The translations under genes were made by a program, and so were the position numbers. A stretch of DNA of 60,856 nucleotides, counting the filler, from Globobulimina sp. (Eukaryota), in assembly GCA_003354225.1 (NCBI GenBank). It is 18 parts of 18 records of this genome, joined end to end, with 100 filler letters (N's around TTAATTAATTAA, not from the genome) between each part and the next. Parts side by side here need not be neighbours in the genome. Positions count along the whole stretch, not along the records: positions 1 to 3,288 come from PIVH01003180.1; 17 more parts are not named here. One strand, given 5' to 3'. Under the pieces are notes generated by a model. The model was not told where the DNA came from. It did not search any database and worked only from the letters and a program-made list of their open reading frames with translations. Shown piece after piece: positions 2-43,930 of this stretch (positions are counted from its first letter, which is position 1; every line of letters starts with the position of its first letter).

Positions 2-1897
2 AACGCAGTTTGTGTGGGATGTATAATGAAAGCATTGATTGACAATGGATTAAATGAAGAGGCATTGAACATATACGATCAACAAATGCTGACACACTCA
101 AATATTAATAATGTTGTTCAGTTATTGGCGCTTAAAGCTTCTCGGAATGCAAATAAGTTGGAAAAAGGAATATTAATCCATGAAAGTCTTAACTTATATG
201 ATTCTGTGGATGCATTGCTAGTAAGTGCATGCATTGATTTTTATGGTAAATTTGGTCAAATTGAACAAGCAGAAAAAATATTTAATACACTGCAGGATAA
301 GGATAAAAGTGTTGGTATTATTGATTGTATGATGACAGTTTATATAAATAATGGTGGAAATAAACAAGCGTTATATTTGTATGATAAATTCAATCAACTT
401 CATGATAACATTTCGCATGTTTTAGCCTTCAAAGCTTGTATCAATGCGAATGATTTTGATAAAGGGTTACAAATTCATGCCCAATTAAAACAAATTGATA
501 TATTTATCAACACCGTTTTGATTGATTTTTATGGCAAATTTGGTCACATTCAGTCCGCATTAGAAATATTTAATTCAATACCAAATAATCAGAAAACAAT
601 TGTGGTTATAAATGCTTTAATGCAAGCTCATATTCATTGTGATTTAAACCACGAAGCAATTAATTTGTTTCAGAAATTATATGAATACGAATGTAGTGAT
701 TATAACCATATAAAAGCAGACATTGTATCGTATAAAACTATATTGAAAGCATGTAATAATGCAATGTTTATACAATTTGGACATGAATTACACACAAAAT
801 TATTAGAGGATAAACAGAATGAAAATATATTGAAAGATGCTGAGATTGCCACTCATTTAATAAATATGTACGGGCAAAGTGGATTAATTGAAGAATGTGA
901 ATCTGTATTTGCATCATTTGATGACTGCAACAGTATAAATGTATCACTATATAAAGCAATGTTGAATGTATATGGTATGGTTGGCGATATTGACAAAGCA
1001 ATGGATTTGTATCACAAAATGTCGGCTCAACACATTGATACAGGAATATATATCCGTTTATTGAAATGTTGCGCAGCCGTTGGAGATATGGACATGGCTC
1101 AACATATTTGGTCAGATCTTCTGGATGCTGCTATCAAATGTGATGAGTTTATAATGGGTGCTTACATCGATTGCATGGCAAGGAAAGGTTTATTGCAAAA
1201 TGCCTTGACATTTATGAAAGACTATGACTATAAATATGAATCAGGATGGTTATCATTGATGAGCTCATGCCGGAAATATAGAAATATGGAGCTTGGTGAG
1301 ACTGTTTATAACGAAATTAATACATTGTTTGAAACAAATATAAATGCTATGAGTTGCGCGTCTGCTTTGATGTCACATTTATATGTCTCACAATTGGAGT
1401 TTGATAAACAGAGTGAAATACGAAATAATATGCAGAGAAATGGTTGGATTCCAAAACAAGGCAAAACAGAGATATATGTGGATGGGACATTGCATGTATT
1501 TCAATCAGGTGCAGGAATTGATGATATTTATTTTAATAATAAAGAAGTCGAATTGTATCGAATGATTGATGCAAAATTGGATGAATTATGTGTGGAATTG
1601 AGGCATAAATATGGATTCAAACATGATTATACAATGCTTACAAGGAAATGTGATGATGATAATATACGGAATAATGAGTTGAAAAGACATGGCGAGAAAC
1701 AAGCGCTGGTATATGGATTATTGAGTATATCTGAAGAAAATCCGATTATAATTAAAAATAGCATGAGGATATGTAATGATTGTCATGATTTTATGAAATC
1801 TGTGTCACACTTAACAAATAGGAAAATTACAATCGCAGATCCGAATCGAGTACATGTGTTTGTGAATGGTTGTTGTAGCTGTAATGATTTTTATTGA
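2..1897 (+). CDS. PLS-type pentatricopeptide repeat protein with E and DYW (cytidine deaminase) domains; 5'-partial
   Basis: Frame is open from the contig start. Repeated motifs such as 'LIDFYGKFGHIQSALEIFNSI' and 'ALKAC..AN..DKG..IH'. E-like 'GWLSLMSSCRKYRNMELG'. PG-box-like 'PKQGKTEIYVDGTLHVFQSG'. Zn-deaminase HxE 'RHGEKQALVYGL' plus CxxC 'MRICNDCHDFMK'. C-terminus 'HVFVNGCCSCNDFY'. Confidence 0.95.
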   Translation, partial: NAVCVGCIMKALIDNGLNEEALNIYDQQMLTHSNINNVVQLLALKASRNANKLEKGILIHESLNLYDSVDALLVSACIDFYGKFGQIEQAEKIFNTLQDKDKSVGIIDCMMTVYINNGGNKQALYLYDKFNQLHDNISHVLAFKACINANDFDKGLQIHAQLKQIDIFINTVLIDFYGKFGHIQSALEIFNSIPNNQKTIVVINALMQAHIHCDLNHEAINLFQKLYEYECSDYNHIKADIVSYKTILKACNNAMFIQFGHELHTKLLEDKQNENILKDAEIATHLINMYGQSGLIEECESVFASFDDCNSINVSLYKAMLNVYGMVGDIDKAMDLYHKMSAQHIDTGIYIRLLKCCAAVGDMDMAQHIWSDLLDAAIKCDEFIMGAYIDCMARKGLLQNALTFMKDYDYKYESGWLSLMSSCRKYRNMELGETVYNEINTLFETNINAMSCASALMSHLYVSQLEFDKQSEIRNNMQRNGWIPKQGKTEIYVDGTLHVFQSGAGIDDIYFNNKEVELYRMIDAKLDELCVELRHKYGFKHDYTMLTRKCDDDNIRNNELKRHGEKQALVYGLLSISEENPIIIKNSMRICNDCHDFMKSVSHLTNRKITIADPNRVHVFVNGCCSCNDFY

Positions 1898-2041
1898 GAT
1901 ATCCATAAATCACTCGCGACTTCGTCACTTATCGATCCTATAAACCAAATAAATAAATTCTATATCGTGAGTAAAATGAAGCGACTTCATCGCATAATTT
2001 ACGCATATCATAAAAACCTTGCTGTTTTTTCAACGTTTTAA

Positions 2042-3241
2042 ATGGATTTTCCAACAAAGAGAACAATCATTTTCATATTAGCACCAATTACACTCATTTT
2101 CATTATCACATATTTTGCACTGAATTTTCAAAATGAATACAATCATTTTATGAACATTTTTGTGAAGAACATGAACAATACATTGAAATCCGTGAGCAAC
2201 AAATCAATCCAACCAAATGATTCCACTCAAAACGAATCAAATTATTACAATCAATGGTTTGGTTCTTGTTTACTTGATTTTAATTTCAAAATTCAATATG
2301 AAAATATATGCAATTTACCAGATTTAATATTCATAAAACATCATAAAACTGGCGGTTATATGAAATCGTGGGTTCCATATTTCAAAAAAGTTTGTAATAT
2401 GACCCATCAATGGTCATTCCAATATAATCCAAACACAATTAACACATCCAAAACAAAACTAAATCGCTCAAAATATTTTCTTTGGTCTGAAAAAAACCAC
2501 AAACAAAATGATTTCTTCAAATTGACACAAACATTGAATGGAATTCAAAATGAAGGTTACATCGTAATAATGATGGTGAGAGAACCATTGACCACTATTC
2601 TAAGCGGGTATAATTATCATGCGGCCGGACGAGAAATTGCATGGACGAATAAAAAATTGAATGCAGCTTCGCCACATCGACAAATGTCGTTACTGTCATG
2701 TTTCAAAAATGTATTTAATTCGAATGAAACTGTGATTGATGGACAAAGTACAATGTATAAAGAATATAGAAAAGGATTTGCGAATCAATACGCAAATGAG
2801 GCTGCATTGCAATATGGATTATATTTAGAATTTACAAGATATTCTAATTGTGAATATCCACAAATTTATGCATTTTACCGTGGGATTAAATATAATGAAC
2901 AGATCAAATATTTTTTATTTCTGAGGTTAGAATGGTTTCAAACTTATGATTATGATCAAAGTGTTAAATATATGTTGGATTCGCTAGGAATTGATCAAAA
3001 TATTTATAATAAGCGATTATTGCCAGGTTTATTGAATGAAAATGTTCAAACCAAACGTAAAAATGGTAAAACTTTATCGCATATATCAAAAGTTCGAGGT
3101 CATTCAACGTATGGTACATATAATAAAGATTTACAAATTGATTTATTATTGAAACATAACAATAATACAAATGTTTGTTTATTTATCAAGAATATGACTT
3201 TATTGCTTGATTCTAAATGGTATTATCAGCAATATTGTTGA
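2042..3241 (+). CDS. Type II membrane (Golgi-type) sulfotransferase-like protein
   Basis: N-terminal TM anchor; 5'-PSB-like 'LIFIKHHKTGG'; 3'-PB-like 'MMVREPLTTILSGYNYH'; 'FLRLE' motif. Confidence 0.75.
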   Translation: MDFPTKRTIIFILAPITLIFIITYFALNFQNEYNHFMNIFVKNMNNTLKSVSNKSIQPNDSTQNESNYYNQWFGSCLLDFNFKIQYENICNLPDLIFIKHHKTGGYMKSWVPYFKKVCNMTHQWSFQYNPNTINTSKTKLNRSKYFLWSEKNHKQNDFFKLTQTLNGIQNEGYIVIMMVREPLTTILSGYNYHAAGREIAWTNKKLNAASPHRQMSLLSCFKNVFNSNETVIDGQSTMYKEYRKGFANQYANEAALQYGLYLEFTRYSNCEYPQIYAFYRGIKYNEQIKYFLFLRLEWFQTYDYDQSVKYMLDSLGIDQNIYNKRLLPGLLNENVQTKRKNGKTLSHISKVRGHSTYGTYNKDLQIDLLLKHNNNTNVCLFIKNMTLLLDSKWYYQQYC

Positions 3242-3725
3242 GTTTCATTCAGATTTGTCAGCAACAATAATAATTATTTTTGTATTTGNNNNNNNNNNNN
3301 NNNNNNNNNNNNNNNNNNNNNNNNNNNNNNNNTTAATTAATTAANNNNNNNNNNNNNNNNNNNNNNNNNNNNNNNNNNNNNNNNNNNNATATCTAATGAT
3401 TCTTTAAATATTAGGGATTAAAACTCTTCACAGGCATCTGAGCTGACCTACTCAATACTTCTTTATATCGGTAAATCATATTCCAGATATTAGATAAGGT
3501 ATTATTTTTAATAAGAAATGTCAATGAATTAATTGTGTACAAGCAAACCTATGCAGTAACCAAACCATTGTTAAACAATTCATCTGTATGTTGTACAAAC
3601 ACCACCTATACAAATACCAATTAATCCAACACTATAAATTATAGTCCAACGCGAAACTAAATGATAAAAATGCAGCTCATTCACATTCGCATTCAAATCT
3701 AATCGAAACGGAAAATGTTTCTTTC

Positions 3726-6676
3726 ATGGGCATGGTTGGATGGTTATTGTGGAAAAATTATAAACAACAATTTCTGCGCAGGAAAAAATCGTGGATCATC
3801 AAAATGTTGTTACCAATCATATTTACGTGTATTTTAGGTGCGTTACGCACGGCATTCAACATCAAAAATGAACCGATTGACTACGGCAACGAACAAGACA
3901 TTTTCAGCTTGGATGACATTTCAATGCCAATGGCACTGCCAATCTCATCCATTGATTCCATCCATGTGCGTTACTCATTGAACCAGCCGTGGGCCATAAG
4001 TCCGTTTACCGCACAAAGCAAGATATTCATCACTATGCCGCTCTGTGTTATGAATTGGACCGCTCCCGCTTCCTTTATTGGCATTGTCAAGCCGTCGAAG
4101 AATGTCCACCACGTCCAAGCCGTCTTAGATATAATGCAACAAAGATGGAGCCATCAAGGCCCGCCTCCGCAGCACGTGGTAGATACTGGACACTGCTACG
4201 AATATGCCACGGAATTACCATTCGAAGAAGGTACTGTTACTGCAATATCCTCGCACCCTCGCACTCCGTTTACATGTTGTTTTAATGTGTTATAAATTCA
4301 AAGGTTGGTTGCTCAAATATTTCGATTCCGACCATGCATTGGATAAATATTGCAGAAGAAGCGAGTATGGGAAAGGCTACGCTGTGTATAACCGATCCAA
4401 CGCGGAAGCGATGAAGAATCGGCCAATAGCGTTTGCGGTGTCATTCGCAGCACCGAGTGATGACGGATTGAGCTGGTCGTACCGACTGCGGTTCAATGCC
4501 TCCGGAGACTCCATGGCCTCGCAACAAGGCGGCAGTGGCCCTCCTTCGCCATTTGATGGCACATTGTTTCCCGTTCCAAGCACGGACCAGCCGAATATCA
4601 ACGATTTTAACCCCAAACTATCGGATCAATGGCGAGCTGGCACAGGGAATTATTACTATTCTTTTTTCATTCATATCCAAAACTATATCGATGCTGCCAT
4701 CAATGAGTACGTTGCGACGCAGTCCGGCGTTGATCAGCAAAGAGTGGAGGAAATCAATTCGATGACCAGAGGTTTCTTTGTGTTCCCCACTCCGAGCTAC
4801 ACGACTGACGATTTTTGGTTTACCATCACGGGCTTGTTTGTGTTTTTTATTCTGATCGCTTTCGTGTATCCATACTCTCAGATCGTCAAAGCTTTGGTGG
4901 AGGAGAAAGCTGCTAAAATCAAAGAAGGAATGAAAATGATGGGAGCTACTTTTGCGACCTTTTGGGTGTCATGGTATATTTGGTTCTTTTTCGAGTTTGT
5001 GATCATGGCGTTTTGTTGGACTTTTTTGGGGAAAGCATTGGATGTCTTCAAGTACAGCAATGTATGGATTATATTAATCTGGATGTTGCTGTTTTGTATC
5101 AATTCAGTGACCTACGCCACTTTGGTCAGCACCATTTTCGACAATCCGAAGGTTGCTTCGCTGATTGGCGTCTTTATGTTTATCATTGCGTTGTATGGCG
5201 GCTTTTTTAGTGTGGTTATGAATGATCAGCAAAAAGTTGCTCTGTGCTTATTAGGGCCGTCGTGTTACAGCATCAGTCTGTTGAATTTGGGGCAATATGA
5301 ACAAGCATTGATTGGCTTGCAATGGGATAATATATGGGATAAATATGACGGTTTTGCATTCATTACAACATTTTATATGTTGGCGTTTGATTCTGTTTTG
5401 TATATCTTATTGACATTGTATATGGATCAGGTTTTTCCGTCGCGTTACGGACAGCGAAAGTCGCCGTTCTTTATATGTTTGCCCTCATTTTGGTGTCCAA
5501 AGAGGAGAAAAGTACAATCATTGGAGCTGTCCAGTAATGCCTTAGCATTGCATGAAACAGACAACTTTGAAGATATTAATGATTCATTTAAAAACACGTC
5601 GCCATCCATTGCCATTCGCCGGTTAACAAAGCACTTTTCGTCTATTACTGGTTCCAAAGTGGTGCAGGCTGTCAACAGCATATCATTGGACGTGTACAGC
5701 GGAGAGGTTTTCTGCTTATTGGGGCATAACGGCGCAGGGAAGACCACCACTATTAATATGCTAACCGGCTTATTGGATGTCACTGATGGCAATGCGTGGA
5801 TATTAGGCAACAGCATAGCTGCGGGAATGCGGCAGATTCGAACCTCGTTAGGTGTCTGTCCGCAGCACGACGTATTATTTAAGAGGTTAACTGTTCGCGA
5901 ACATTTTGAACTGTTTTGCAGATTAAAAGGAGTGCCCGCTCATTTAATTAAATCTGAAGTGGATCAAACTATCCACGACGTTGGCTTAAAAGATAAAGAA
6001 TACGATTTCCCACCAAATATGTCTGGTGGACAGAAAAGAAAATTGTCATTAGGCATTGCGTTGATTGGTGGCTCAAAAATTGTATTTTTAGACGAACCAA
6101 CGAGTGGCATGGTATGTTTATATTTGACGTGTTTTTATTGTGATTCATTGCAAAATATAACAGGACCCACAGAGTCGGCGGGTAACCTGGGAATTAATTG
6201 CGAGAGAGAAGAAAAATCGGTGCATCGTACTGACAACGCATTTCATGGTATTTTTATGTTTGATATCAATGTGTTTTCCACTGCGACTTATTGCAAAATA
6301 TAACAGGACGAAGCGGATATATTAGCAGACCGAATCGCCATTATGTCGACTGGCTATATTCGCTGTTGTGGCAGTGCCTTATTTTTAAAAAGATTGTATG
6401 GAGTTGGTAGGTGCAAATCTATTACATTTTTCATTTTTGAATTAATTATATTACCAAATTAAACGCACAAAAGGTTACACATTCAGCATCTCATTGGAAA
6501 TTGGCATGGACCCTCAGCACATTCGAGAAAAGGTGGACGACATTGTTTTGTCTCAAATATCGGGCTCCTCACTTATATCCATAGCCGGCGGCGAGTTGGC
6601 ATATCGATTACCATTCGAAGCAACTGGTTCCTTTCCCGATGTATTTGAGCAACTTGAAAAATCCAAAAAAGATTTG
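3726..6676 (+). CDS. ABCA-subfamily ABC transporter, 3'-partial. Exons 3726-4230, 4304-6111, 6164-6247, 6307-6406, 6474-6676
   Basis: 'LLWKNY...RR' N-terminus, '[15 protein letters not shown]', Walker [15 protein letters not shown], signature MSGGQKRKL. Removing four GT-AG introns restores '[14 protein letters not shown]', '[19 protein letters not shown]' and '[11 protein letters not shown]' in frame. Confidence 0.95.
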
Positions 6677-6809
6677 NNNNNNNNNNNNNNNNNNNNNNNN
6701 NNNNNNNNNNNNNNNNNNNNTTAATTAATTAANNNNNNNNNNNNNNNNNNNNNNNNNNNNNNNNNNNNNNNNNNNNTAGTACATCAATAATCTACACAAT
6801 TAGAGTAAT

Positions 6810-6985
6810 TTATATAATTTATATGATTTATATTTGCCACTCAAAATTTACTCTAGTAACAGGCTCTAAGTGTTAGATAATTTATACAAATTTACCTACA
6901 GTATATGATTTATATGATTTATATGATTTGTATTTACCACTAAAAATTAACTCTAGTAACATTCTCTAAGTTTTCTATAATTTAT
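6810..6985. repeat. Imperfect 100-bp tandem duplication with ATGATTTAT micro-repeats
   Basis: 'atgatttatatttgccactcaaaatttactctagtaacaggctctaagt' recurs 100 bp later as 'atgatttgtatttaccactaaaaattaactctagtaacattctctaagt'. Confidence 0.85.
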
Positions 6986-7086
6986 AAGATTTATGTGATT
7001 TGTAAGAATTTTCTAATTTAGAGTTAGTAAACTGTAGTGATTTTTTTTAGCAAAAAAATATCCTTGCACAACTGTATCCCTTCTGT

Positions 7087-9956
7087 ATGTCTAGTAGAAC
7101 CGTGCGTTCACGTCGAGGAAAGAACAAAAAGAGTACAAAGAAAATTGAAGCGCTACCTGTGAAGCCGCAAGATCAGGCTCTGGAATGTGGTCCTCCGTGG
7201 ACTAGGGCGCAATTCGCAAAGAAATACAAGAAGGGATTGAGAGAAACTGGCCGCACATATAAGGTGCGGGGAGCGGGTACTTGGAACAGCAACACCAACC
7301 GGACAACAATGATCAACGCCCTCATCGAGTATTCGAATGAAGGCGCCAAAAGAGCCGAAACTGCACCTGTTGATGAGGATGAAACAGATGGCCGGCATTA
7401 TGACGACAACAGGACTGATGCGAACTCGCTCATCCTCTCGAGTGATGATATTAACCGCAGCCCGCACTCATTGGTACAGCAATTTGAATCAGACCATATC
7501 GACGCAGATGACAGTTTATCAGAGTTTCACGATTCCGAAGCCAGAGTCGATACGGACAGTGATCCATGTTTAGAACTAACCCCAGCATCCGCCGGACCCA
7601 AGACTGCCAATAATAAAACAATCATATCGAGTATCGCGGCAGACATCTGGAATGAAACTACTCCCGAGGCTCCAGGTTTGTTGTTTTTTTTTGTTTTTTT
7701 TGTTTGTAAGTTACAAATTATATAAATCATATCCTGTATGTGATTTATTACAGTCCAAATCTCAATAAATATGTCTCAAGATGCGAATATGCGTATGTCT
7801 ATGGAGGAGGAGGAGGAGGAAGATGAAGAAGAAGAAGAAGAGGTGGAAGAGGTGGAAAATGTAGACCAAGAGAAAGAAAATGAGAATAAGCAGGCTGAAA
7901 ATGCAAAAAAAGTCTGTAGTGCGGATGTGCGTAGCGACGTGGCCGTGGCTATTAATGTGGATAACAGCGACGATGGAACAGGTGCGATGCATGTAGATAA
8001 AGACACCGACGGGGAGAATGGAGTTGATCCACTTTCAGCCGATAGTGCCGATGGTGTCAGTTCAGTTCCGCAGCTGGAAGACAATACTCCTTTGGCTTCA
8101 GACTGCCTATCGAATGATATCGACATGGCGACGAATAATAACAATAATAATTACAATAATAACAATAATAATAATAATAATGAGGCCGCACAGATATTAG
8201 TAAATCTTAAAAACAATTCGGATGTGGACGGAGGCCAGCACTATGGCACGCGTGGTGGTTATTTCACACAGAGTGGAGAGAAAAGCAACGCAGAGTGCTT
8301 AATGAATAACAGGTCTCTGCGAAAGGACAGTCCACTGTGTAGCAATCCCAATGAAAGTATTCATCGATATCTCAATCAGAAGCGTGGTGTCGGACGCGGA
8401 CGAAGGTCGCGACGTAGAAAGTCTTTGGCGCAGACTACGCAGCATACAGAATCAGAGAATGCGCATGACGGCAATAACAATGACGTGAATACGGTTGTAG
8501 CAGATTTTGACGAGGATATGGATGATTCCCGGACTGTGCAGCATAAACAAGCAGAGAGTGCCCATGCCCGCAATATCAAAGACGTGAATTCGGTTGGCGC
8601 AGATTTGGATGAGGATATGGAAGATTGTAAATCCCCTGCCCGACTTGGGAAACCAGTGTGGAGATTGAAGCGGAGACCGACACGTGAAGAATGGACGTGT
8701 TTTAATGCAGATCTGAAGCGTTTTAATCGACAAGAAACCCTCGATTTCTGTTTAAATGAGGAATATGGCTCTTTGGGCTATGAGATTTGGGATAAATTAT
8801 GTCGGGCGAATTTGAATCAAGTGACAGAAATCTCGCGTTGTGATGTGGACGAACTGACTGAGTGTTATCATTTTAAGTTAAATAACGCCCTTAAAATATT
8901 ACGTGAATCGAAACGGTACATTGCAATGACCCCGATTGGTACGTTTCTTTTCTATTTTATCCTGTGCACATTATTCATTTAAATTTACAAATTAATATAA
9001 ATTGTACAAATCATATAAATTATATTAGTTACAACTAGTATATTAATTTTATTAATTATATAAATTGTGTAGATTATATAATTTTAATAAATTTTACAAA
9101 TTATATAAGTAATATATATGATTTTTAATATAGTTTATATAATTCCTTATCTTACTTCTATTTAGTACAAGAGACTCCTGGTCGCGGATTGTCGAGAACG
9201 CCTCGCAAACCCCAAAAAAAGACTAAAACAAGAAAAACCAAAAAGTCCGTGAAAAAGAGCAAAAATCCCTCAGAAAATACTATACCCGAAGGTTGGGAGC
9301 GTTCCCCGTCAGGTCGGCCGCGTAATGTGACGGCATTACTACCATCCAAGCTCGAGGCATTTAAAGTTAAAGCACTGCGCAAAACTGCGGAATATGCGCA
9401 GAAAGATATAAATTTGGATGCCAATGGCAATCCGCTAGTAATTAACGCAACGAATTACAGAGCCTTTTTGACGAATAATATGCGCGATGTATCTTCAATT
9501 CCTGTCACTGAATTTTATGATAAAGCGAAGAAAAAATATCCATTTTCTATTGTGTCTATTGTGGTGCCAGTCTTAAAATCCTTCATGAAAGTCGGCCTAG
9601 TTAAAGAGATTACCCCCATTGGATTGACAGAGAATGGAATGGGTGGCAAACACTGTGTTTATGGGAGTGTACGATTTGAAACATTATCCAGTGCGCGTAT
9701 CCCTGGCGACGGCGGCCAAATTGCAGAATTGAAAACCTTTATGGCAAGAGTTGCAGGGGATGACTATAAAGTATGGATAGGTTATGCGCAAAAGACCAAA
9801 GATTATAAGAATTGTCTCGTTTCGGGCCTGCTCGGTGACTTACAGTCACCTGATAGTTTCACGTTGGATCAATGTCATCAAAAACATGACTGTACTCTCG
9901 ATTTGCAAGGAATAGTACCTACTGATGAAGAGGAAGAAGAAGAAGAGGAATTTTAA
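7087..9956 (+). CDS. Uncharacterised ~854-aa acidic, low-complexity probable nuclear protein. Exons 7087-7675, 7754-8938, 9166-9956
   Basis: Three ORFs join in frame through two phase-1 GT-AG introns (7676-7753, 8939-9165). Basic NLS-like tracts, poly-E and poly-N, a tandem ~32-aa repeat, possible SAM-like helical segment. Confidence 0.75.
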
Positions 9957-9977
9957 ATTAGATTTGCATTTATATGA

Positions 9978-9982
<5 letters not shown>

Positions 9983-10029
<47 letters not shown>

Positions 10030-30932: not shown

Positions 30933-33773
30933 TCACATGATGATGCTTGATAGCAAAACAGAAGAAGCAGTCATTACATGCTTATTGTGTTCAAATCGTT
31001 GTCTGATTTGATCATAAATATACTGCCCATCCATTAATTTATGATCATTATGTAATTTACATCCATTTAATAATGCTATCCACATACTGCTGTGATGCAT
31101 ATTAATATCCTTATCATTCTTATGATAATTTTCATATTCCACAATGATTTTTAATGCCATATTTAACATTCCTTTACGTGATAATCCATCTATTAATGCG
31201 GTAACAACATAGCAATCGTATTTTATTTCTGTATCATTAATCTCATACTGCCATATTTGTATCGCCTTTTCAACACTGCCACAATGATTAAATCCGTTAA
31301 TTAAATGAATAAATGTTTTACTGTTTGCTACAATGTCATTATCTGTCATTTGTAAATATAAATTGTATCCATTTTCCGACATTCCATTCCTTTGAAACGC
31401 ATTTATCATCGCATTGAAAAGTGAAATATTATTTATATTTTCATTTTCATTGAAAATATTTTGTGCAATATTAATTTCCCCACATTTCCCAAACATATTA
31501 ATTAAACAAATTTGTATTGATATTTGCGATAACATCCAATTATTTTTTTTATTTATTTTTAAATGATTATATAATTTCTCGCCAAAATGCAACAATGTAC
31601 TCTCTGTACATGCTTTTAATGCAATTGTATATGATATAATATCTGGCAATATATCGTCACCATTTTTCCCTGCAAATATATTATCAAATAAACTCACACA
31701 TTTTTCATGTTCACCACAATTAACATAACTGTCCATTAATGCATTATAACAGGCAATATTTAGTATATTTTTATCAATGGAATTAAATATATTTTCTGCT
31801 TTATTAATATCATCAAAATTGCCATAAAAATCAATCAACGCTGTAAATGCATAAATGTCCTCATTATTATTTGCTATTTTTAATTCAACCTCTTTCCCTT
31901 TCTCATAATCATCGCATTTTATACATGCTTTAATTGCCAACGAATGCAAATAATTATTTTGCAAAAACGTATATTTATCATATAATAATAATGCATTTTT
32001 AGATTCATTATTTGTGATAAAAGCTTTCATCAAACACCCAATTAATATGGAATCTTTTTTGTTGTCCTCCACTGTGTTTACTACATCTTTTGCTATATTT
32101 ATATATCCAAATTCTCCTAAAAATTCAATCAATACACTTTTTAGATTTATATCGCATTTATTTAAATCTATTTTGTTTTTGATTATTTCTAGTCCGACAT
32201 CGCAATTCTTCTGTTTTATACAACATTTTATTAACAGAATATGGCTCACATTATCTTGCAATGTATTATATTTATTATATAAATTGAACATTGTATCGTA
32301 ATGACAATGTTGTAAACAAACCGACAGCAACGCATTCAAAACAACACTTGTCTTCTTCTCTTCGCTCAACACATTAAATATGTAAAACGATTCTGTATAT
32401 TTTCCAAAATATCCATGAAAACTTATCATTGTTCCTAATAAATTCTCATTGTTTACGCAACTTATTTTAATATTATCAATAATGTCTTTTCCTGTTTTTG
32501 TGTCATTACATTTTATACAGGCTTTTAATGCGTAAATATGTGCAATTTCATTTAAAACTGATCTGGTTTTAAAATCTCTGTAAACATCCAATGTTTTATC
32601 ATATTTATGATCCATAAAAAATGTATTCATGATACTATTTATCATAAATGAACTAACCTTATTTTTACTGACTGATTCAAATACGTTCAATGCATTGTCG
32701 ATTTCACCAAAATGTCCATAAAAATCAATTAATTTCGAGGCAATCTTGCTGTTATCTTTTATTTTGATTTTTGAATGAATCATTTTTCCTGTTTCATAAT
32801 CATTACATTTCCGGCATGCTTTCAGTGCCAACCCATCGAGCACTAAATTGCTGTCTACGTTATATTTCTCATATAATTGTAACGCTTTTATTGCATAATT
32901 ATTTTGTATATACATTTTCATCATAACACTGATCAAAATGGCATTAATTTGATGATGATTTAAGGCATAAAATATGTTTTCACACATTTTAATTTCACCG
33001 AAATGTCCGTAAAAATCAATTAATATCGTTTTTATATTCAAATCATACTCTTTTTTAATGTTTGAATGAATTATTTTTCCATTGTTAAAATCATTCAATT
33101 TTGTGCATGCTTTTATGGCCAATCCATTGCAAATATCATCCATTTGCAACTTAGTTATATTTGTATTATATATTTGCATTGCATTGCTATGATAATTGTT
33201 ATTTATTAAGCTTTGCATAGTGGCACTAATTAAAATAATATCTTTCTGATTGGATGAATTGAATACTTTCATTATATCATCAAATGAATTAAACACGTTT
33301 ATAAATGCCATATTTATATAAATATCATTAATTCCAATGTGCGAAATCAGTGAATATATTTTACGCAACTTATGAATGTGAACATCATTGTAGCCGTCGC
33401 ATTGTTCAGTTATTGAACTGATTGATTTCGAAAAATGTTTGATATCTTTTGCATTATAACAATTGTAATCGATGACCCATTGCAATGTTTGAATGCAGTC
33501 ATCAAGATTCTTGACACAATGTTTAAACACTAATCCGTAAAAAAAACGTTTTCCATTGTCATTATTTGGTGTGTTGTTTGCATTAATTTGTGTTATGTCA
33601 TCCCATATTAACGATGTTAATTTTTCCGGAAATTTCAAATGAGTGCAGATTTTTAGGAATTCATTGATTTGCAAAGCTGTTTTGTTGATAGTGCCTTCGT
33701 ATTTGCTCACACACGACTCGCACGTCAAATGTTTCAATGATTGTTTCGTGTAAAATGATGATTGCTGCAGTTT
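30933..33773 (-). CDS. Large PLS-type PPR protein ending in an E-like domain (no DYW); 5'-partial
   Basis: Recurrent triplets 'LIDFYGHFGEI..A.N.F' / 'ISVMMKMYIQNN...AL.LY' / 'LALKAC.K.ND...GK.IH'. Ends 'MWIALLNGCKLH...MTASSVLLSSIIM*'. Confidence 0.93.
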   Translation of the reverse strand, partial: KLQQSSFYTKQSLKHLTCESCVSKYEGTINKTALQINEFLKICTHLKFPEKLTSLIWDDITQINANNTPNNDNGKRFFYGLVFKHCVKNLDDCIQTLQWVIDYNCYNAKDIKHFSKSISSITEQCDGYNDVHIHKLRKIYSLISHIGINDIYINMAFINVFNSFDDIMKVFNSSNQKDIILISATMQSLINNNYHSNAMQIYNTNITKLQMDDICNGLAIKACTKLNDFNNGKIIHSNIKKEYDLNIKTILIDFYGHFGEIKMCENIFYALNHHQINAILISVMMKMYIQNNYAIKALQLYEKYNVDSNLVLDGLALKACRKCNDYETGKMIHSKIKIKDNSKIASKLIDFYGHFGEIDNALNVFESVSKNKVSSFMINSIMNTFFMDHKYDKTLDVYRDFKTRSVLNEIAHIYALKACIKCNDTKTGKDIIDNIKISCVNNENLLGTMISFHGYFGKYTESFYIFNVLSEEKKTSVVLNALLSVCLQHCHYDTMFNLYNKYNTLQDNVSHILLIKCCIKQKNCDVGLEIIKNKIDLNKCDINLKSVLIEFLGEFGYINIAKDVVNTVEDNKKDSILIGCLMKAFITNNESKNALLLYDKYTFLQNNYLHSLAIKACIKCDDYEKGKEVELKIANNNEDIYAFTALIDFYGNFDDINKAENIFNSIDKNILNIACYNALMDSYVNCGEHEKCVSLFDNIFAGKNGDDILPDIISYTIALKACTESTLLHFGEKLYNHLKINKKNNWMLSQISIQICLINMFGKCGEINIAQNIFNENENINNISLFNAMINAFQRNGMSENGYNLYLQMTDNDIVANSKTFIHLINGFNHCGSVEKAIQIWQYEINDTEIKYDCYVVTALIDGLSRKGMLNMALKIIVEYENYHKNDKDINMHHSSMWIALLNGCKLHNDHKLMDGQYIYDQIRQRFEHNKHVMTASSVLLSSIIM

Positions 33774-42226: not shown

Positions 42227-43930
42227 TTATTCGAGTCTAAGGTTTGTGTACTGTTTATAATGCAATGTAAGACGTGTAAAAGCCTGCCATTCTGCACATT
42301 TCAAAGTGTAAGAATAATATGGTTCGGGTGCTGTGTAATCGCCACTCAATTTGTCATGAACAGGAAACATTGACCAACACGTCCGACACATTGACCTTTG
42401 CGAAATCCATTTTTGTTTTGTATTACGTTTTACCAATGTTCTCCAATCCAAATTATATAATGATACTGTTTTAATATTTGCATTTAACCATTTTTTATAA
42501 TTATCAATCTCATCCATTTGTGTTTTATAATCCTCATCAAGTAATATTTTATTCCTATTTTGGAAATTTTCAAATTGAGTATGTAATGGATATGGCAAAT
42601 GTTTTATTATTTTGTCATATTGATATGATCTTAGTTTTGGTATTGTTGATACAGAAAATCCAATAAACGTATTATTATTTATATCATCCTCAATGATACA
42701 AAGATAAATTGGTAATAAAAAGCTTGAAATTGGAACATTGGACCGAATCCATTCTAAAATATCAAATATATCATTGCTTTCATTTTTGTTTAATAAATGT
42801 TGAAATAAATAACAAAAGGGACTCCAAACAGTATCTATATCTGTGATATAATTATGATTTTGGCCGAGTTGGTTTAACATTTCAAAACAAGCATTTCGTA
42901 GCAATTTATCATCGAATGTAAGCATCCAATCCAATGTTCTTTTAATTGAAACAATATCGCCAATAATTGAATTATTTGAATCATTTGTTTTAACATTTTT
43001 TACATCTTTATATTTGATAAATTTTCTTTGTAATTTTGTTGGAATATTTTCAAAACAATTCCATTTTTTTGTAGCTTTTTTAATGATAGCATCAATATTT
43101 GCGAATTGCTCAAAATATAAAAAACAATCAATCAATAAAATTAATAAATTTTCATCAAAATGTTTAAATGAAATATATTTACTATTTATTGTCCATTTAT
43201 ACATTGTGTTAAATATTGTTTTTATTTCTTTTTCTTTATTATTTATGTTTGAGTACAACGCATCGAATGATGTTCTTATCGCTGACAGCATTTTTGTATT
43301 TGGATTTGAATTTAGTTCCATCATTTTATTTAAAATTATAATCAAAGAATCTGCATTTTTATTTTTTACTTTATTTATCAATGTAATAAATGTCAATTCA
43401 TTTGGTTTCAAATTAATATTCGTATTTAAGTCATGAAACAGTTTCAATATTTCATCGATTTTATTCATTTTTGAAAATAATATATTAAATGTAACAATGT
43501 TTGGTTGTAAATTCCAATCTTTTTCCATTGAATATAATATATTTTGAGGATTAATATCAAAATAATCCAATGTTTCTGTATTTGTTTCAAACTGAAGCAG
43601 TGTGTGAAATATTTCATGATTTGGTTTTAGTTCATTTATTTCATTCAATTTAAAAAAATAATCAAACACATTTTTCATTGATTTATTATCTTCAAAATAT
43701 CCAAATAAATATATTAATGCATGAATGTGGCGTATCGAAATATTTTCACTTTTACTTTTATTTGATAAAAATTGCCAAATATTTTGAATATTTTTCAAAG
43801 TTACAATTTTATGATTAATATGTTTCCTGTTTGCACATAACAGCATGTATGAAGACAGTAAAACTAATATCTCATCATATTTAATCTCAATATGTTTACA
43901 TTTCATATCGTTAATTAACGCATTAATACT
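42227..43930 (-). CDS. P-type PPR-containing protein with a unique C-terminal region; 5'-partial
   Basis: 'LKPNHEIFHTLL', 'LQPNIVTFNILF', 'LKPNELTFITLI', 'NPNTKMLSAI' recur at roughly 35-aa spacing. Confidence 0.75.
   Translation of the reverse strand, partial: SINALINDMKCKHIEIKYDEILVLLSSYMLLCANRKHINHKIVTLKNIQNIWQFLSNKSKSENISIRHIHALIYLFGYFEDNKSMKNVFDYFFKLNEINELKPNHEIFHTLLQFETNTETLDYFDINPQNILYSMEKDWNLQPNIVTFNILFSKMNKIDEILKLFHDLNTNINLKPNELTFITLINKVKNKNADSLIIILNKMMELNSNPNTKMLSAIRTSFDALYSNINNKEKEIKTIFNTMYKWTINSKYISFKHFDENLLILLIDCFLYFEQFANIDAIIKKATKKWNCFENIPTKLQRKFIKYKDVKNVKTNDSNNSIIGDIVSIKRTLDWMLTFDDKLLRNACFEMLNQLGQNHNYITDIDTVWSPFCYLFQHLLNKNESNDIFDILEWIRSNVPISSFLLPIYLCIIEDDINNNTFIGFSVSTIPKLRSYQYDKIIKHLPYPLHTQFENFQNRNKILLDEDYKTQMDEIDNYKKWLNANIKTVSLYNLDWRTLVKRNTKQKWISQRSMCRTCWSMFPVHDKLSGDYTAPEPYYSYTLKCAEWQAFTRLTLHYKQYTNLRLE

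What the first reader, a model, noticed from the sequence alone, without database searches (positions are those of the whole stretch)
1238..1897. Intact PPR-E-DYW RNA-editing deaminase in a non-plant protist
Seen: PLS-like PPR array, E region, then a complete DYW domain with HxE (HGEK), CxxC (CNDCH) and the second Zn site (H..F..G.CSC.DFY). Known: such proteins are the site-specific C-to-U organellar RNA editors of land plants, with only patchy occurrence in protists (e.g. Naegleria, Physarum, Acanthamoeba). The PG box is divergent (PKQGKTEIYV rather than PGxSWIEV) and the terminus is DFY. Non-PG, non-W variants in ferns and hornworts are linked to U-to-C editing, so the direction here is open. 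Inference: this AT-rich, apparently foraminiferan-like genome may run a little-described mitochondrial (or kleptoplast) RNA-editing system.
Basis: partly seen in the sequence, partly recalled or inferred. Interest (0 to 1): 0.88.

Follow-up and report, generated by a model that had tools for sequence, protein, structure and literature searches.

The report
Plant-type RNA-editing gene in a foraminifer
A shelled marine amoeba (foraminifer) genome carries a gene built like the plant proteins that rewrite C to U in organelle RNA; it probably edits mitochondrial RNA, which nobody has tested.

Summary
Window 2-1897 (+) is one open frame of 631 aa, cut at its 5' end by the window edge. It encodes three P-L-S triplets, P2-L2-S2, an E1/E2-like region and a full-length DYW deaminase domain (Pfam PF14432, 81.7 bits, model 1-93/93). 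All zinc and catalytic residues are present. The PG box, the KNLR motif and the last residue (DFY) are divergent.

The host is foraminifer-like. The closest protein is a Nonionella stella transcript (58% over the full length). A Bolivina argentea fragment matches the N-terminal part at 65%. The neighbouring ABCA gene is 75-76% identical to Bolivina fragments and 40-54% to Reticulomyxa.

In a 55-row tree the DYW domain falls in a well-supported 19-row clade ending in Y, which holds three Nonionella rows. This clade is apart from the nine named seed-plant rows. A high-confidence model superposes on solved plant DYW structures.

The best reading is a nuclear-encoded, site-specific mitochondrial C-to-U editing factor. 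No editing was tested. I found no support for the U-to-C idea or the kleptoplast idea.

This is a new member of a known kind. DYW proteins are already known in several protists, were tallied for Rhizaria in 2026, and were linked to mitochondrial C-to-U editing in rhizarian paradinids in 2025.

The parts
2..1897 (+). 5'-truncated ORF (631 aa plus stop) of a PLS-class PPR protein with a C-terminal DYW deaminase domain. No intron or frame break within the window.
2..943 (+). Three P-L-S-like triplets (aa 1-314). Motif lengths are 34/36/33, 33/30/33 and 42/40/33. I set the boundaries by eye from the BLASTP alignment, so they may be off by 1-2 residues.
   Evidence: Pfam PPR/PPR_2
944..1243 (+). 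P2-L2-S2-like triplet (aa 315-414), colinear with the last triplet of a conifer PPR-DYW protein.
1244..1462 (+). E1- and E2-like helical motifs (aa 415-487). They align to the plant E region but are below detection by the Pfam E_motif model.
1451..1480 (+). PG-box equivalent PKQG/KTEIYV (aa 484-493). The glycine is kept, and P and W of the plant PGxSWIE are replaced. It is predicted as the first strand of a beta-hairpin.
1463..1894 (+). DYW deaminase domain (aa 488-631). The Pfam match covers aa 538-631, nt 1613-1894. An insert of about 8 residues replaces the plant 'xHP' segment after the PG box.
1688..1696 (+). HGE. H563 is a Zn1 ligand and E565 the catalytic glutamate, equivalent to OTP86 H892 and E894.
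1754..1786 (+). KNSMRICNDCH. C591 and C594 are Zn1 ligands and H595 a Zn2 ligand. The lysine lies one residue earlier than OTP86 K915 in the otherwise near-invariant KNLR.
1853..1894 (+). HVFVNGCCSCNDFY. H618, C625 and C627 are Zn2 ligands. The end is DFY in place of DYW.
30936..33737 (-). Context: a second PLS-type PPR gene (934 aa ORF), 32% identical to the first over 442 aligned residues. It stops inside the E2-like motif and has no DYW domain.

Best explanation
This is a nuclear gene of a foraminifer for a plant-type PLS-class PPR protein with a catalytically complete DYW cytidine deaminase domain. By analogy with plant and Naegleria DYW proteins, it is most likely imported into mitochondria. 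There its PPR array would bind a specific RNA sequence just upstream of one or a few cytidines, and its DYW domain would deaminate them to uridine.

Shown here: the domain architecture, the conserved zinc and catalytic residues, the DYW fold, membership of a multi-gene foraminiferal clade, and signs of selective constraint.

Inferred only: mitochondrial location, RNA targets, the C-to-U direction, and activity itself.
For: Architecture:
- Pfam DYW_deaminase scores 81.7 bits over the full model, with PPR families alongside.
- BLASTP to a conifer PPR-DYW protein (P0013) is colinear from the PLS triplets through P2-L2-S2-E1-E2 to the last residue (E 5e-56, 24% identity).

Catalytic set:
- H, E, C, C, H, H and C are invariant, and the second C of CxC nearly so, in a 53-sequence alignment. 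All are present in the window protein.
- They map onto OTP86 Zn1 (H892, C920, C923), E894 and Zn2 (H924, H947, C954, C956) (alignment; residue roles from PMC7611903 passages).

Fold:
- The AlphaFold2 model has pLDDT 93.4 and pTM 0.87.
- Foldseek finds 9kfx_A (synthetic PPR-DYW with RNA) at E 9.1e-13 and TMq 0.84, OTP86 7o4e/7o4f at TMt 0.76-0.83, and DYW1 7w86 at TMt 0.90. In all, 9 matches have E<=0.001.

Host:
- The best full-length relative is a Nonionella stella protein, 58% identical over 100% of the query.
- A Bolivina argentea fragment is 65% identical.
- The neighbouring ABCA gene is 75-76% identical to Bolivina fragments and 40% (99% coverage) and 54% (48% coverage) to Reticulomyxa filosa.
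- GC of the first 2 kb is 0.315, within the window's range of 0.23-0.44.

Family:
- In the careful tree of 55 rows, WIN+P0001 has support 100/99.
- A 19-row clade has 99/98 and holds 3 Nonionella rows.
- The 9 named seed-plant rows lie on one side of a branch at 97/84.

Constraint: of 35 listed differences within the ORF between the window and contigs of four runs, 20 are synonymous and 15 are not. None touches a zinc or catalytic residue.

N-termini of relatives are basic and poor in acidic residues. P0011 has 8 K/R and 1 D/E in its first 45 residues.

Precedent: DYW genes led to the discovery of mitochondrial C-to-U editing in Naegleria (as cited in PMC4758236 passages) and accompany it in rhizarian paradinids (PMC11946409 passages).
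Against: No organellar sequence or RNA of this organism could be examined, so no edited site is known. The foraminiferal mitogenome paper that I searched by terms reports no C-to-U editing; it notes only a conserved cox1 frameshift in miliolids (PMC10127745, passages).

Several features important in plants are altered:
- PG box: P and W are lost.
- The 'xHP' segment is replaced by a longer insert.
- HSE reads HGE.
- The KNLR motif reads KNSMR, with the lysine shifted by one position relative to the regulatory K915.
- The terminal W, reported as essential in DYW1 and PpPPR65 (PMC7611903 passage), is Y.

HMMER does not align the first 40 residues of the domain to any solved DYW chain. Pfam E_motif gives no hit for the window protein.

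The N-terminus is outside the window, so targeting cannot be predicted for this protein. The synonymous/non-synonymous count pools runs under three organism labels and leaves out 9 differences that the tool did not list.
Confidence: 0.6

Rival explanations
1. It is a PPR-DYW protein that binds organellar RNA but no longer edits. It would act in RNA stabilisation, cleavage or processing, or as a helper for other factors, with a DYW domain weakened by the changes in the PG box, the KNLR motif and the terminal W.
For: The PG box, xHP segment, KNLR and terminal W are all altered. W960 and the region around K915 matter for plant activity (PMC7611903 passages). The first 40 domain residues are not alignable to solved DYW chains by sequence.
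Against: All seven zinc ligands and the catalytic glutamate are retained, and they are invariant or nearly so across 53 relatives. The Y end and the lack of xHP are shared by a whole well-supported clade that still keeps the catalytic set, which argues for a working variant rather than decay. The PG-box hairpin is modelled with high confidence.
Confidence: 0.2
2. It is a reverse (U-to-C) or bidirectional editor, like the DYW:KP proteins of hornworts, lycophytes and ferns.
For: Like most DYW:KP domains, it lacks the xHP residues and a canonical PG box and does not end in W (PMC9478123 passages). The HxE middle residue is not the serine typical of C-to-U domains.
Against: The KP hallmark alanine (HAE) is absent: the window has HGE. 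Most clade relatives have HSE, and HAE occurs in P0002 and P0186. KP ends are DRH or GRP, not D-aromatic-aromatic (PMC9478123 passages). The 2026 survey assigned all 31 rhizarian domains to DYW and none to DYW:KP (PMC13386178, section 7). No KP sequence was in my tree, so this was not tested phylogenetically.
Confidence: 0.05
3. It edits transcripts of stolen plastids (kleptoplasts) or of symbionts rather than mitochondrial RNA.
For: The closest orthologue comes from Nonionella stella, a species I recall as kleptoplastic. That recollection comes from no call.
Against: Relatives also occur in Bolivina argentea. Nothing in the sequence or its neighbours points to plastids. In protists with DYW proteins, the editing described in the papers I read is mitochondrial (PMC4758236, PMC11946409, PMC4202320; passages or abstract).
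Confidence: 0.03
4. The gene is a contaminant, from a plant, another protist or prey DNA, and does not belong to the foraminifer.
For: Foraminiferal samples and transcriptomes are rarely axenic. The EukProt names rest on transcriptome assemblies.
Against: The gene lies on a 60.9-kb contig with even AT-rich composition. Next to it is an ABCA gene whose best named relatives are foraminiferal, and a paralogous PLS gene lies 29 kb away. Plant proteins are only 22-26% identical. The stretch is held by 8 runs of 4 studies. The DYW domain groups with foraminiferal rows, apart from seed plants.
Confidence: 0.03

Closest known systems
Land-plant PLS-class PPR-DYW editing factors (for example Arabidopsis OTP86, At3g63370, PDB 7o4e/7o4f; synthetic PPR-DYW 9kfx)
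   Same: The order of parts is the same: P-L-S triplets, P2-L2-S2, E1/E2, then DYW. All Zn1 and Zn2 ligands and the catalytic glutamate are present. The fold matches (TMq 0.84 to 9kfx_A).
   Different: Overall identity is only 22-26%. The PG box lacks P and W, and xHP is replaced by a longer insert. It has HGE instead of HSE, KNSMR instead of KNLR, and ends in DFY. The Pfam E_motif is not detected. The host is a rhizarian protist.
Nonionella stella EukProt protein P0001 (907 aa) and the Bolivina argentea fragment P0011
   Same: These are probable orthologues. P0001 is 58% identical over the whole window protein and 63-65% over the DYW region. It has the same insert after the PG box, the same K shift, and a Y end (CDYY).
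   Different: They come from different species. P0001 has HSE where the window has HGE. Both are transcriptome-derived and, as far as my searches show, undescribed.
Protist DYW-type PPR proteins of Naegleria gruberi, Acrasis kona and Physarum polycephalum
   Same: They are non-plant, nuclear-encoded PPR-DYW families with conserved zinc-binding residues. In Naegleria and Acrasis they are tied to mitochondrial C-to-U editing (PMC4758236 passages; PMC4202320 abstract).
   Different: They belong to other supergroups (Discoba, Amoebozoa). Physarum mostly has LS-type arrays (PMC4758236 passage), whereas this protein has P-L-S triplets. None of their sequences was named among my hits, so the relationship was not tested.
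Paradinid (Ascetosporea, Rhizaria) PPR-DYW proteins with mitochondrial C-to-U and A-to-I editing (PMC11946409)
   Same: Same supergroup. The PPR-DYW proteins keep H, E, C and C, and editing was observed in mitochondria.
   Different: The paradinid sequences are reported to share a deletion and an origin with fungal DYW proteins. I had none of those sequences to compare, so common ancestry with the foraminiferal clade is open.
DYW:KP domains of hornworts, lycophytes and ferns (U-to-C editing)
   Same: Non-canonical PG box, missing xHP and a non-W end.
   Different: KP domains have HAE and DRH or GRP ends and are restricted to seedless plants (PMC9478123 passages; PMC13386178 section 7). The window has HGE and DFY.

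Membership tests
PLS-class PPR protein, DYW subgroup | Tandem PPR repeats | tested here: met
   Pfam PPR 74.7 bits (cut-off 25) and PPR_2 60.1 bits (cut-off 30).
PLS-class PPR protein, DYW subgroup | Alternating P, L and S motif variants ending in a P2-L2-S2 triplet | tested here: met
   BLASTP is colinear with a conifer PLS-DYW protein over the array. The segmentation gives 4 triplets. No PLS-specific HMM set was available, so motif types rest on this alignment and on consensus motifs that I recall.
PLS-class PPR protein, DYW subgroup | E1/E2 motifs (Pfam E_motif PF20431) | tested here: inconclusive
   There is no PF20431 hit at E<=10 for residues 381-493. The orthologue P0001 scores E 0.0034 and 18 bits, below the 27.3 cut-off. 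The region still aligns residue by residue with plant E1/E2.
PLS-class PPR protein, DYW subgroup | DYW deaminase domain above the Pfam gathering score | tested here: met
   PF14432 scores 81.7 bits against a cut-off of 24, model 1-93/93. PDB sequence match to OTP86 DYW at E 6.3e-17.
PLS-class PPR protein, DYW subgroup | Catalytic zinc signature HxE(x)nCxxC | tested here: met
   H563, E565, C591 and C594. These columns are invariant in 53 sequences.
PLS-class PPR protein, DYW subgroup | Structural zinc ligands (H of CxxCH, H of HxF, CxC) | tested here: met
   H595, H618, C625 and C627 align with OTP86 H924, H947, C954 and C956.
PLS-class PPR protein, DYW subgroup | PG box (PGxSWIE) | tested here: not met
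   The sequence reads PKQGKTEIYV. Only G, I and V-type positions are kept. The two strands are nevertheless modelled. A variable PG box is reported for non-plant DYW domains (PMC13386178, section 7).
PLS-class PPR protein, DYW subgroup | C-terminal D-Y-W tripeptide | tested here: not met
   The end is DFY. Of 132 related domains, 67 end in DYW, 17 in DFW, 8 in DYY and 2 in DFY. Most ends in its 19-row clade are Y.
PLS-class PPR protein, DYW subgroup | Regulatory lysine of KNLR (OTP86 K915) | tested here: not met
   In the gap-free alignment the K915-equivalent position is N586, and K585 lies one residue earlier. The role of K915 is from PMC7611903 passages.
PLS-class PPR protein, DYW subgroup | DYW fold: deaminase core with gating insertion and C-terminal zinc motif | tested here: met
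   Model pLDDT 93.4. Matches 9kfx_A at TMq 0.84, 7o4e_B at TMt 0.83 and 7w86 at TMt 0.90.
PLS-class PPR protein, DYW subgroup | Organellar targeting | not testable with these tools
   The N-terminus lies outside the window and no targeting predictor was available. N-termini of relatives are basic and acid-poor, which is only a hint.
PLS-class PPR protein, DYW subgroup | Site-specific C-to-U editing of organellar RNA | not testable with these tools
   No whole genome is held. No organellar DNA or RNA of this organism was available.
DYW:KP (U-to-C) subgroup | HAE active site, KP-type box, DRH or GRP type end | tested here: not met
   The window has HGE, PKQG and DFY. The criteria come from PMC9478123 passages. 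No KP sequences were available for a tree.

The most novel reading that the evidence does not exclude
Foraminifera run a plant-like mitochondrial editosome built from a multi-gene family. DYW-bearing PLS proteins such as this one would work alongside PLS proteins that stop inside E2 and need a deaminase in trans. If so, mitochondrial proteins and COI barcodes inferred from foraminiferal DNA differ from the mRNA. The clade's own DYW variant has no xHP, a shifted regulatory lysine and a Y end. It might lack the plant-type autoinhibition or have altered direction control.
Probability: 0.4. Interest if true: 0.65.

Novelty: new member of a known kind. Interest (0 to 1): 0.45.

Why it matters
DYW genes have twice predicted organellar C-to-U editing before it was seen, in Naegleria and in paradinids. 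Foraminiferal mitochondrial genomes were first described in 2023, from DNA alone.

This gene and its relatives in Nonionella and Bolivina make a concrete, cheap prediction: comparing RNA with DNA in foraminiferal mitochondria should show C-to-U sites. If that is true, gene annotation, barcoding and phylogenies based on mitochondrial DNA of a major group of marine calcifiers would need correction.

The family would also give a second rhizarian case for asking whether protist DYW genes are ancient or were acquired from plants. Its naturally divergent PG box, KNLR motif and Y end are useful variants for structure-function work on DYW deaminases.

Tried and rejected
- **Whole-genome search for further DYW genes:** no genome is held for this window.
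- **Word-indexed search with the DYW region alone:** only 2 proteins among 92 candidates, P0001 and one Striga protein. The clade shares few exact words with other DYW domains, so I used the exhaustive representative search instead.
- **Other DYW domains in the window:** tblastn with E+DYW found none at E<=10 apart from the gene itself.
- **Expression:** no listed holder is on record as RNA. Three runs are only guessed to be RNA.
- **Laid contigs:** they cover most of the ORF at 95-100% identity. One 2328-nt contig of run X2 spans 2-1905, extends 402 nt upstream of the window, and carries an adapter-like loose end at 1905. The neighbouring gene is only patchily covered in that run. Contigs cannot show transcription, ends or levels, so I draw no conclusion from this.
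- **PPR-code target prediction:** not attempted. My motif boundaries are uncertain by 1-2 residues and no mitochondrial genome of the host was available to score.
- **Neighbouring 'sulfotransferase' (2042-3241):** no Pfam family at E<=0.01. Atlas feature hits of 0.91 to sulfotransferase-named clusters are a lead only. It was not useful for taxonomy.
- **Earlier notes of this scan:** nothing for this genome or sequence. Only Naegleria DYW notes turned up.
- **Literature on foraminiferal DYW or PPR:**
  - 'DYW'+'foraminifera' gave 2 papers, neither on the topic.
  - 'DYW'+'Reticulomyxa' gave 1 paper, irrelevant.
  - 'pentatricopeptide'+'foraminifera' gave 13 papers, of which 12 were listed. None looks relevant by title and abstract start.
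  - A six-term search with genus names was swamped by plant papers and told me nothing.
  - Table S10 of PMC13386178, which lists the 31 rhizarian DYW domains, is a supplement I could not open. It may already include foraminiferal proteins.
- **Plant contamination:** rejected (see rivals).
Full report
**What is there.** The first 1.9 kb of the window is a single open frame, 2-1897 on the + strand, 631 aa, with no stop before the window's first base.
- Pfam finds a full-length DYW deaminase domain: PF14432, E 3.5e-23, 81.7 bits against a cut-off of 24, residues 538-631, model 1-93 of 93. It also finds PPR repeats.
- The gene is not complete in the window. The closest full-length relative (P0001) has 907 aa, and a fragment (P0011) matches the window's first ~150 residues at 65% while carrying about 330 further N-terminal residues.

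**Architecture.** BLASTP against a conifer PPR-DYW protein (P0013) gives one colinear alignment from the PPR array to the last residue: E 5e-56, 24% identity over 691 columns.
- Guided by that alignment, I divided the protein into three P-L-S-like triplets, a P2-L2-S2-like triplet, two E-like motifs and the DYW domain. The boundaries are mine and may be off by a residue or two. The motif consensus I compared against is recalled, not from a call.
- Pfam's E_motif model does not detect the E region in the window protein. It is weak in the orthologue (E 0.0034, 18 bits, below the cut-off) and strong in an unnamed canonical relative, P0018. The E region is therefore supported by alignment, not by the family model.
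- Relative to plants, an insert of about eight residues replaces the 'xHP' segment after the PG box.

**Catalytic equipment and fold.** I aligned 53 sequences: the window domain plus 52 short hits, chosen from the 150 listed because they are little more than the domain.
- The invariant columns are H94, E96, R120, C122, C125, H126, D144, H149 and C158. Nearly invariant columns include C156, F151 and G154.
- The window protein has every one of the zinc and catalytic residues. Through the HMMER alignment to OTP86 (7o4e_A, E 6.3e-17) they correspond to Zn1 ligands H892/C920/C923, catalytic E894, and Zn2 ligands H924/H947/C954/C956 (roles from PMC7611903, passages read).
- An AlphaFold2 model of residues 470-631 has mean pLDDT 93.4 and pTM 0.87, with a beta-hairpin at the PG-box position.
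- Foldseek against the PDB returns only DYW structures at the top: 9kfx_A (E 9.1e-13, TMq 0.84, rmsd 2.2 A), OTP86 7o4e/7o4f (TMt 0.76-0.83) and DYW1 7w86 (TMt 0.90). Bacterial cytidine deaminase toxins follow at TM about 0.5. In all, 9 matches have E<=0.001.

**Departures from the plant consensus.**
- The PG box lacks P and W.
- HSE reads HGE.
- The near-invariant KNLR reads KNSMR. In the gap-free alignment the position of the regulatory lysine K915 is N586, with K585 one residue earlier.
- The final W, which PMC7611903 describes as essential in DYW1 and PpPPR65, is Y.
- HMMER does not align the first 40 residues of the domain to any solved chain.

These are not random decay. The orthologue shares the insert, the lysine shift and a Y end, and most rows of the surrounding clade end in Y while keeping all ligands.

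**Whose gene is it?** No genome is held for the window, so I used relatives.
- One search listed 64 proteins at E<=0.001. The best are EukProt-only or unnamed metagenomic proteins, and land-plant proteins follow at 22-26% identity. Of the 64, 29 carry an HxE motif in their last 140 residues.
- Exact look-ups show that P0001, P0192/P0335 and P0197 (DYW-bearing) and P0003, P0005 and P0007 (no DYW) are Nonionella stella. P0011, P0015 and P0202 are Bolivina argentea. In one search only 3 of 10 clusters carried a name, and all three were Nonionella.
- The neighbouring ABCA transporter gene gives the same answer independently:
  - Its partial matches at 75-76% identity (P0076, P0083) are Bolivina argentea.
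  - Another Bolivina fragment (P0074) matches at 63%, and the cluster of P0066 (66%) holds both Nonionella and Bolivina members.
  - The longest match, P0065 (45% over 99% of the query), is also Bolivina argentea.
  - The best NCBI-named proteins are Reticulomyxa filosa, at 40% over 99% and 54% over 48%.
- Composition is even across the contig (GC 0.23-0.44 per 2 kb, 0.315 for the first 2 kb). The other ORFs are ordinary eukaryotic genes: cyclin, kinase, phosphodiesterase, EF-hand and MFS.
- I conclude that the window is nuclear DNA of a foraminifer related to, but distinct from, Bolivina and Nonionella. I did not try to name it further.

**Place among DYW domains.** The exhaustive search of 1.84 billion representatives with the 152-residue domain found 1752 proteins at E<=0.001, 562 at E<=1e-10 and 5 at E<=1e-30.
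- From the hits in hand I extracted 132 domains that cover the query well and built a FastTree overview of 133 rows.
- I then built a careful IQ-TREE tree of 55 rows: 46 non-plant-like rows and 9 named seed-plant rows. Three further plant rows that I asked for had failed my extraction filter and were left out.
- WIN and Nonionella P0001 are sisters (100/99). With Nonionella P0192 and one marine metatranscriptome row they form a 4-row group (100/81).
- A 19-row clade (99/98) holds three Nonionella rows and 16 unnamed rows. With a Bolivina row it extends to 22 rows (98/93).
- The nine named plant rows lie together (97/84). An amoebozoan row (Soliformovum) lies on the plant side of the central branch.
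- The tree is unrooted. It contains no bryophyte, fern, KP, Naegleria, Physarum or paradinid sequence that I could name, so it says nothing about the ultimate origin of the clade.

**Constraint and presence in other data.** The stretch 2-3300 is held by 8 runs of 4 studies under three coded organism labels.
- Laying contigs of four runs listed 40 differences, with 9 more not shown. Of the 35 inside the ORF, 20 are synonymous and 15 are not, and none affects a ligand.
- That excess of silent changes fits a gene under purifying selection. The count is rough and pools different strains or species.
- Whether the gene is transcribed cannot be told from these contigs.

**A second family member.** ORF 30936-33737 (-) encodes a 934-aa PLS-type protein that is 32% identical to the first over 442 aligned residues. 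It stops inside the E2-like motif, and no DYW-like sequence follows. The Nonionella and metagenomic hits P0003-P0009 end at the same point. The lineage therefore has both DYW-bearing and truncated 'E-type' members, as land plants do. In plants such proteins obtain a deaminase in trans (established knowledge; PMC7611903 passage on DYW1/DYW2). Whether that happens here is speculation.

**How it most likely works.** By analogy, the protein is imported into mitochondria and the PPR array reads an RNA sequence just 5' of a target cytidine. The E motifs then position the DYW domain, which deaminates C to U using the Zn1-bound water and E565. Every step after 'has the parts' is inferred.
- In favour: the precedents in Naegleria (cited in PMC4758236) and in rhizarian paradinids, where PPR-DYW transcripts and mitochondrial C-to-U editing were found together (PMC11946409, passages). 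Relatives also have basic, acid-poor N-termini.
- Against: the altered PG box, lysine and W; and no report of C-to-U editing in the foraminiferal mitogenome paper, which I searched by terms only and which mentions just a conserved cox1 frameshift in miliolids (PMC10127745).
- I put 0.6 on an active mitochondrial C-to-U editor, 0.2 on a non-editing RNA-binding role, and small odds on reverse editing, kleptoplast targets or contamination.

**The U-to-C suggestion.** According to the passages I read in PMC9478123:
- DYW:KP domains are marked by HAE, by DRH or GRP ends, and usually by loss of xHP.
- Changing HAE to HSE weakens their U-to-C activity.

The window shares only the loss of xHP and the non-canonical PG box. 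It has HGE. Most of its clade has HSE, with HAE in P0002 and P0186, and the D-aromatic-aromatic end is kept. The 2026 survey classed all 31 rhizarian domains as DYW and none as DYW:KP (PMC13386178, section 7). The direction is formally untested, but nothing here favours reverse editing.

**Novelty.** DYW-type PPR proteins outside plants have been known since 2010.
- My searches found no paper that describes PPR-DYW proteins or C-to-U editing in Foraminifera. However, the survey's supplementary table, which I could not open, may already list some.

This is therefore a new member of a known kind. Its practical value is that it predicts mitochondrial RNA editing in a large, well-studied group where none has been looked for.

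Noticed in passing
window 30936-33737 (-): A second plant-like PLS-type PPR gene (934-aa ORF) stops inside the E2-like motif and has no DYW domain. Nonionella and metagenomic relatives P0003-P0009 end at the same point, which suggests a conserved 'E-type' subgroup in foraminifera.
   Followed up: partly
window 42230-43906 (-): A 559-aa ORF has only a weak PPR_2 match (E 1.2e-06, 28.9 bits, below the 30-bit cut-off). It may be a third helical-repeat RNA-binding protein gene in the same 60 kb.
   Followed up: no
window 1754-1768 (+): The near-invariant KNLR motif of DYW domains reads KNSMR. The lysine is shifted one residue relative to the autoinhibitory K915 of OTP86. The Nonionella orthologue shares the shift, and several other non-plant relatives have N at that position.
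   Followed up: partly
window 2-1905, run X2: One 2328-nt contig of a coded run covers the whole ORF at 9 differences, extends 402 nt upstream of the window, and ends 8 nt after the stop codon with an adapter-like loose end. The neighbouring gene is only patchily covered in that run. The run's kind is unknown.
   Followed up: no
Language-model feature search puts it near sulfotransferase-named eukaryotic clusters (score 0.91), which is a lead only.
   Followed up: partly
window 44060-46822 (+): A 920-aa ORF starts directly with a Helicase_C / HDA2-3-like region, with no SNF2 N-terminal domain in the same ORF. The upstream gene is on the other strand. It is either a split or intron-containing gene or an unusual C-terminal-only SNF2-like protein.
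   Followed up: no
window 3726-10000 (+): The ABCA-type transporter gene is spread over several ORFs with higher GC (0.37-0.44) than the rest of the window, so it has introns, unlike the intron-free PPR genes.
   Followed up: no
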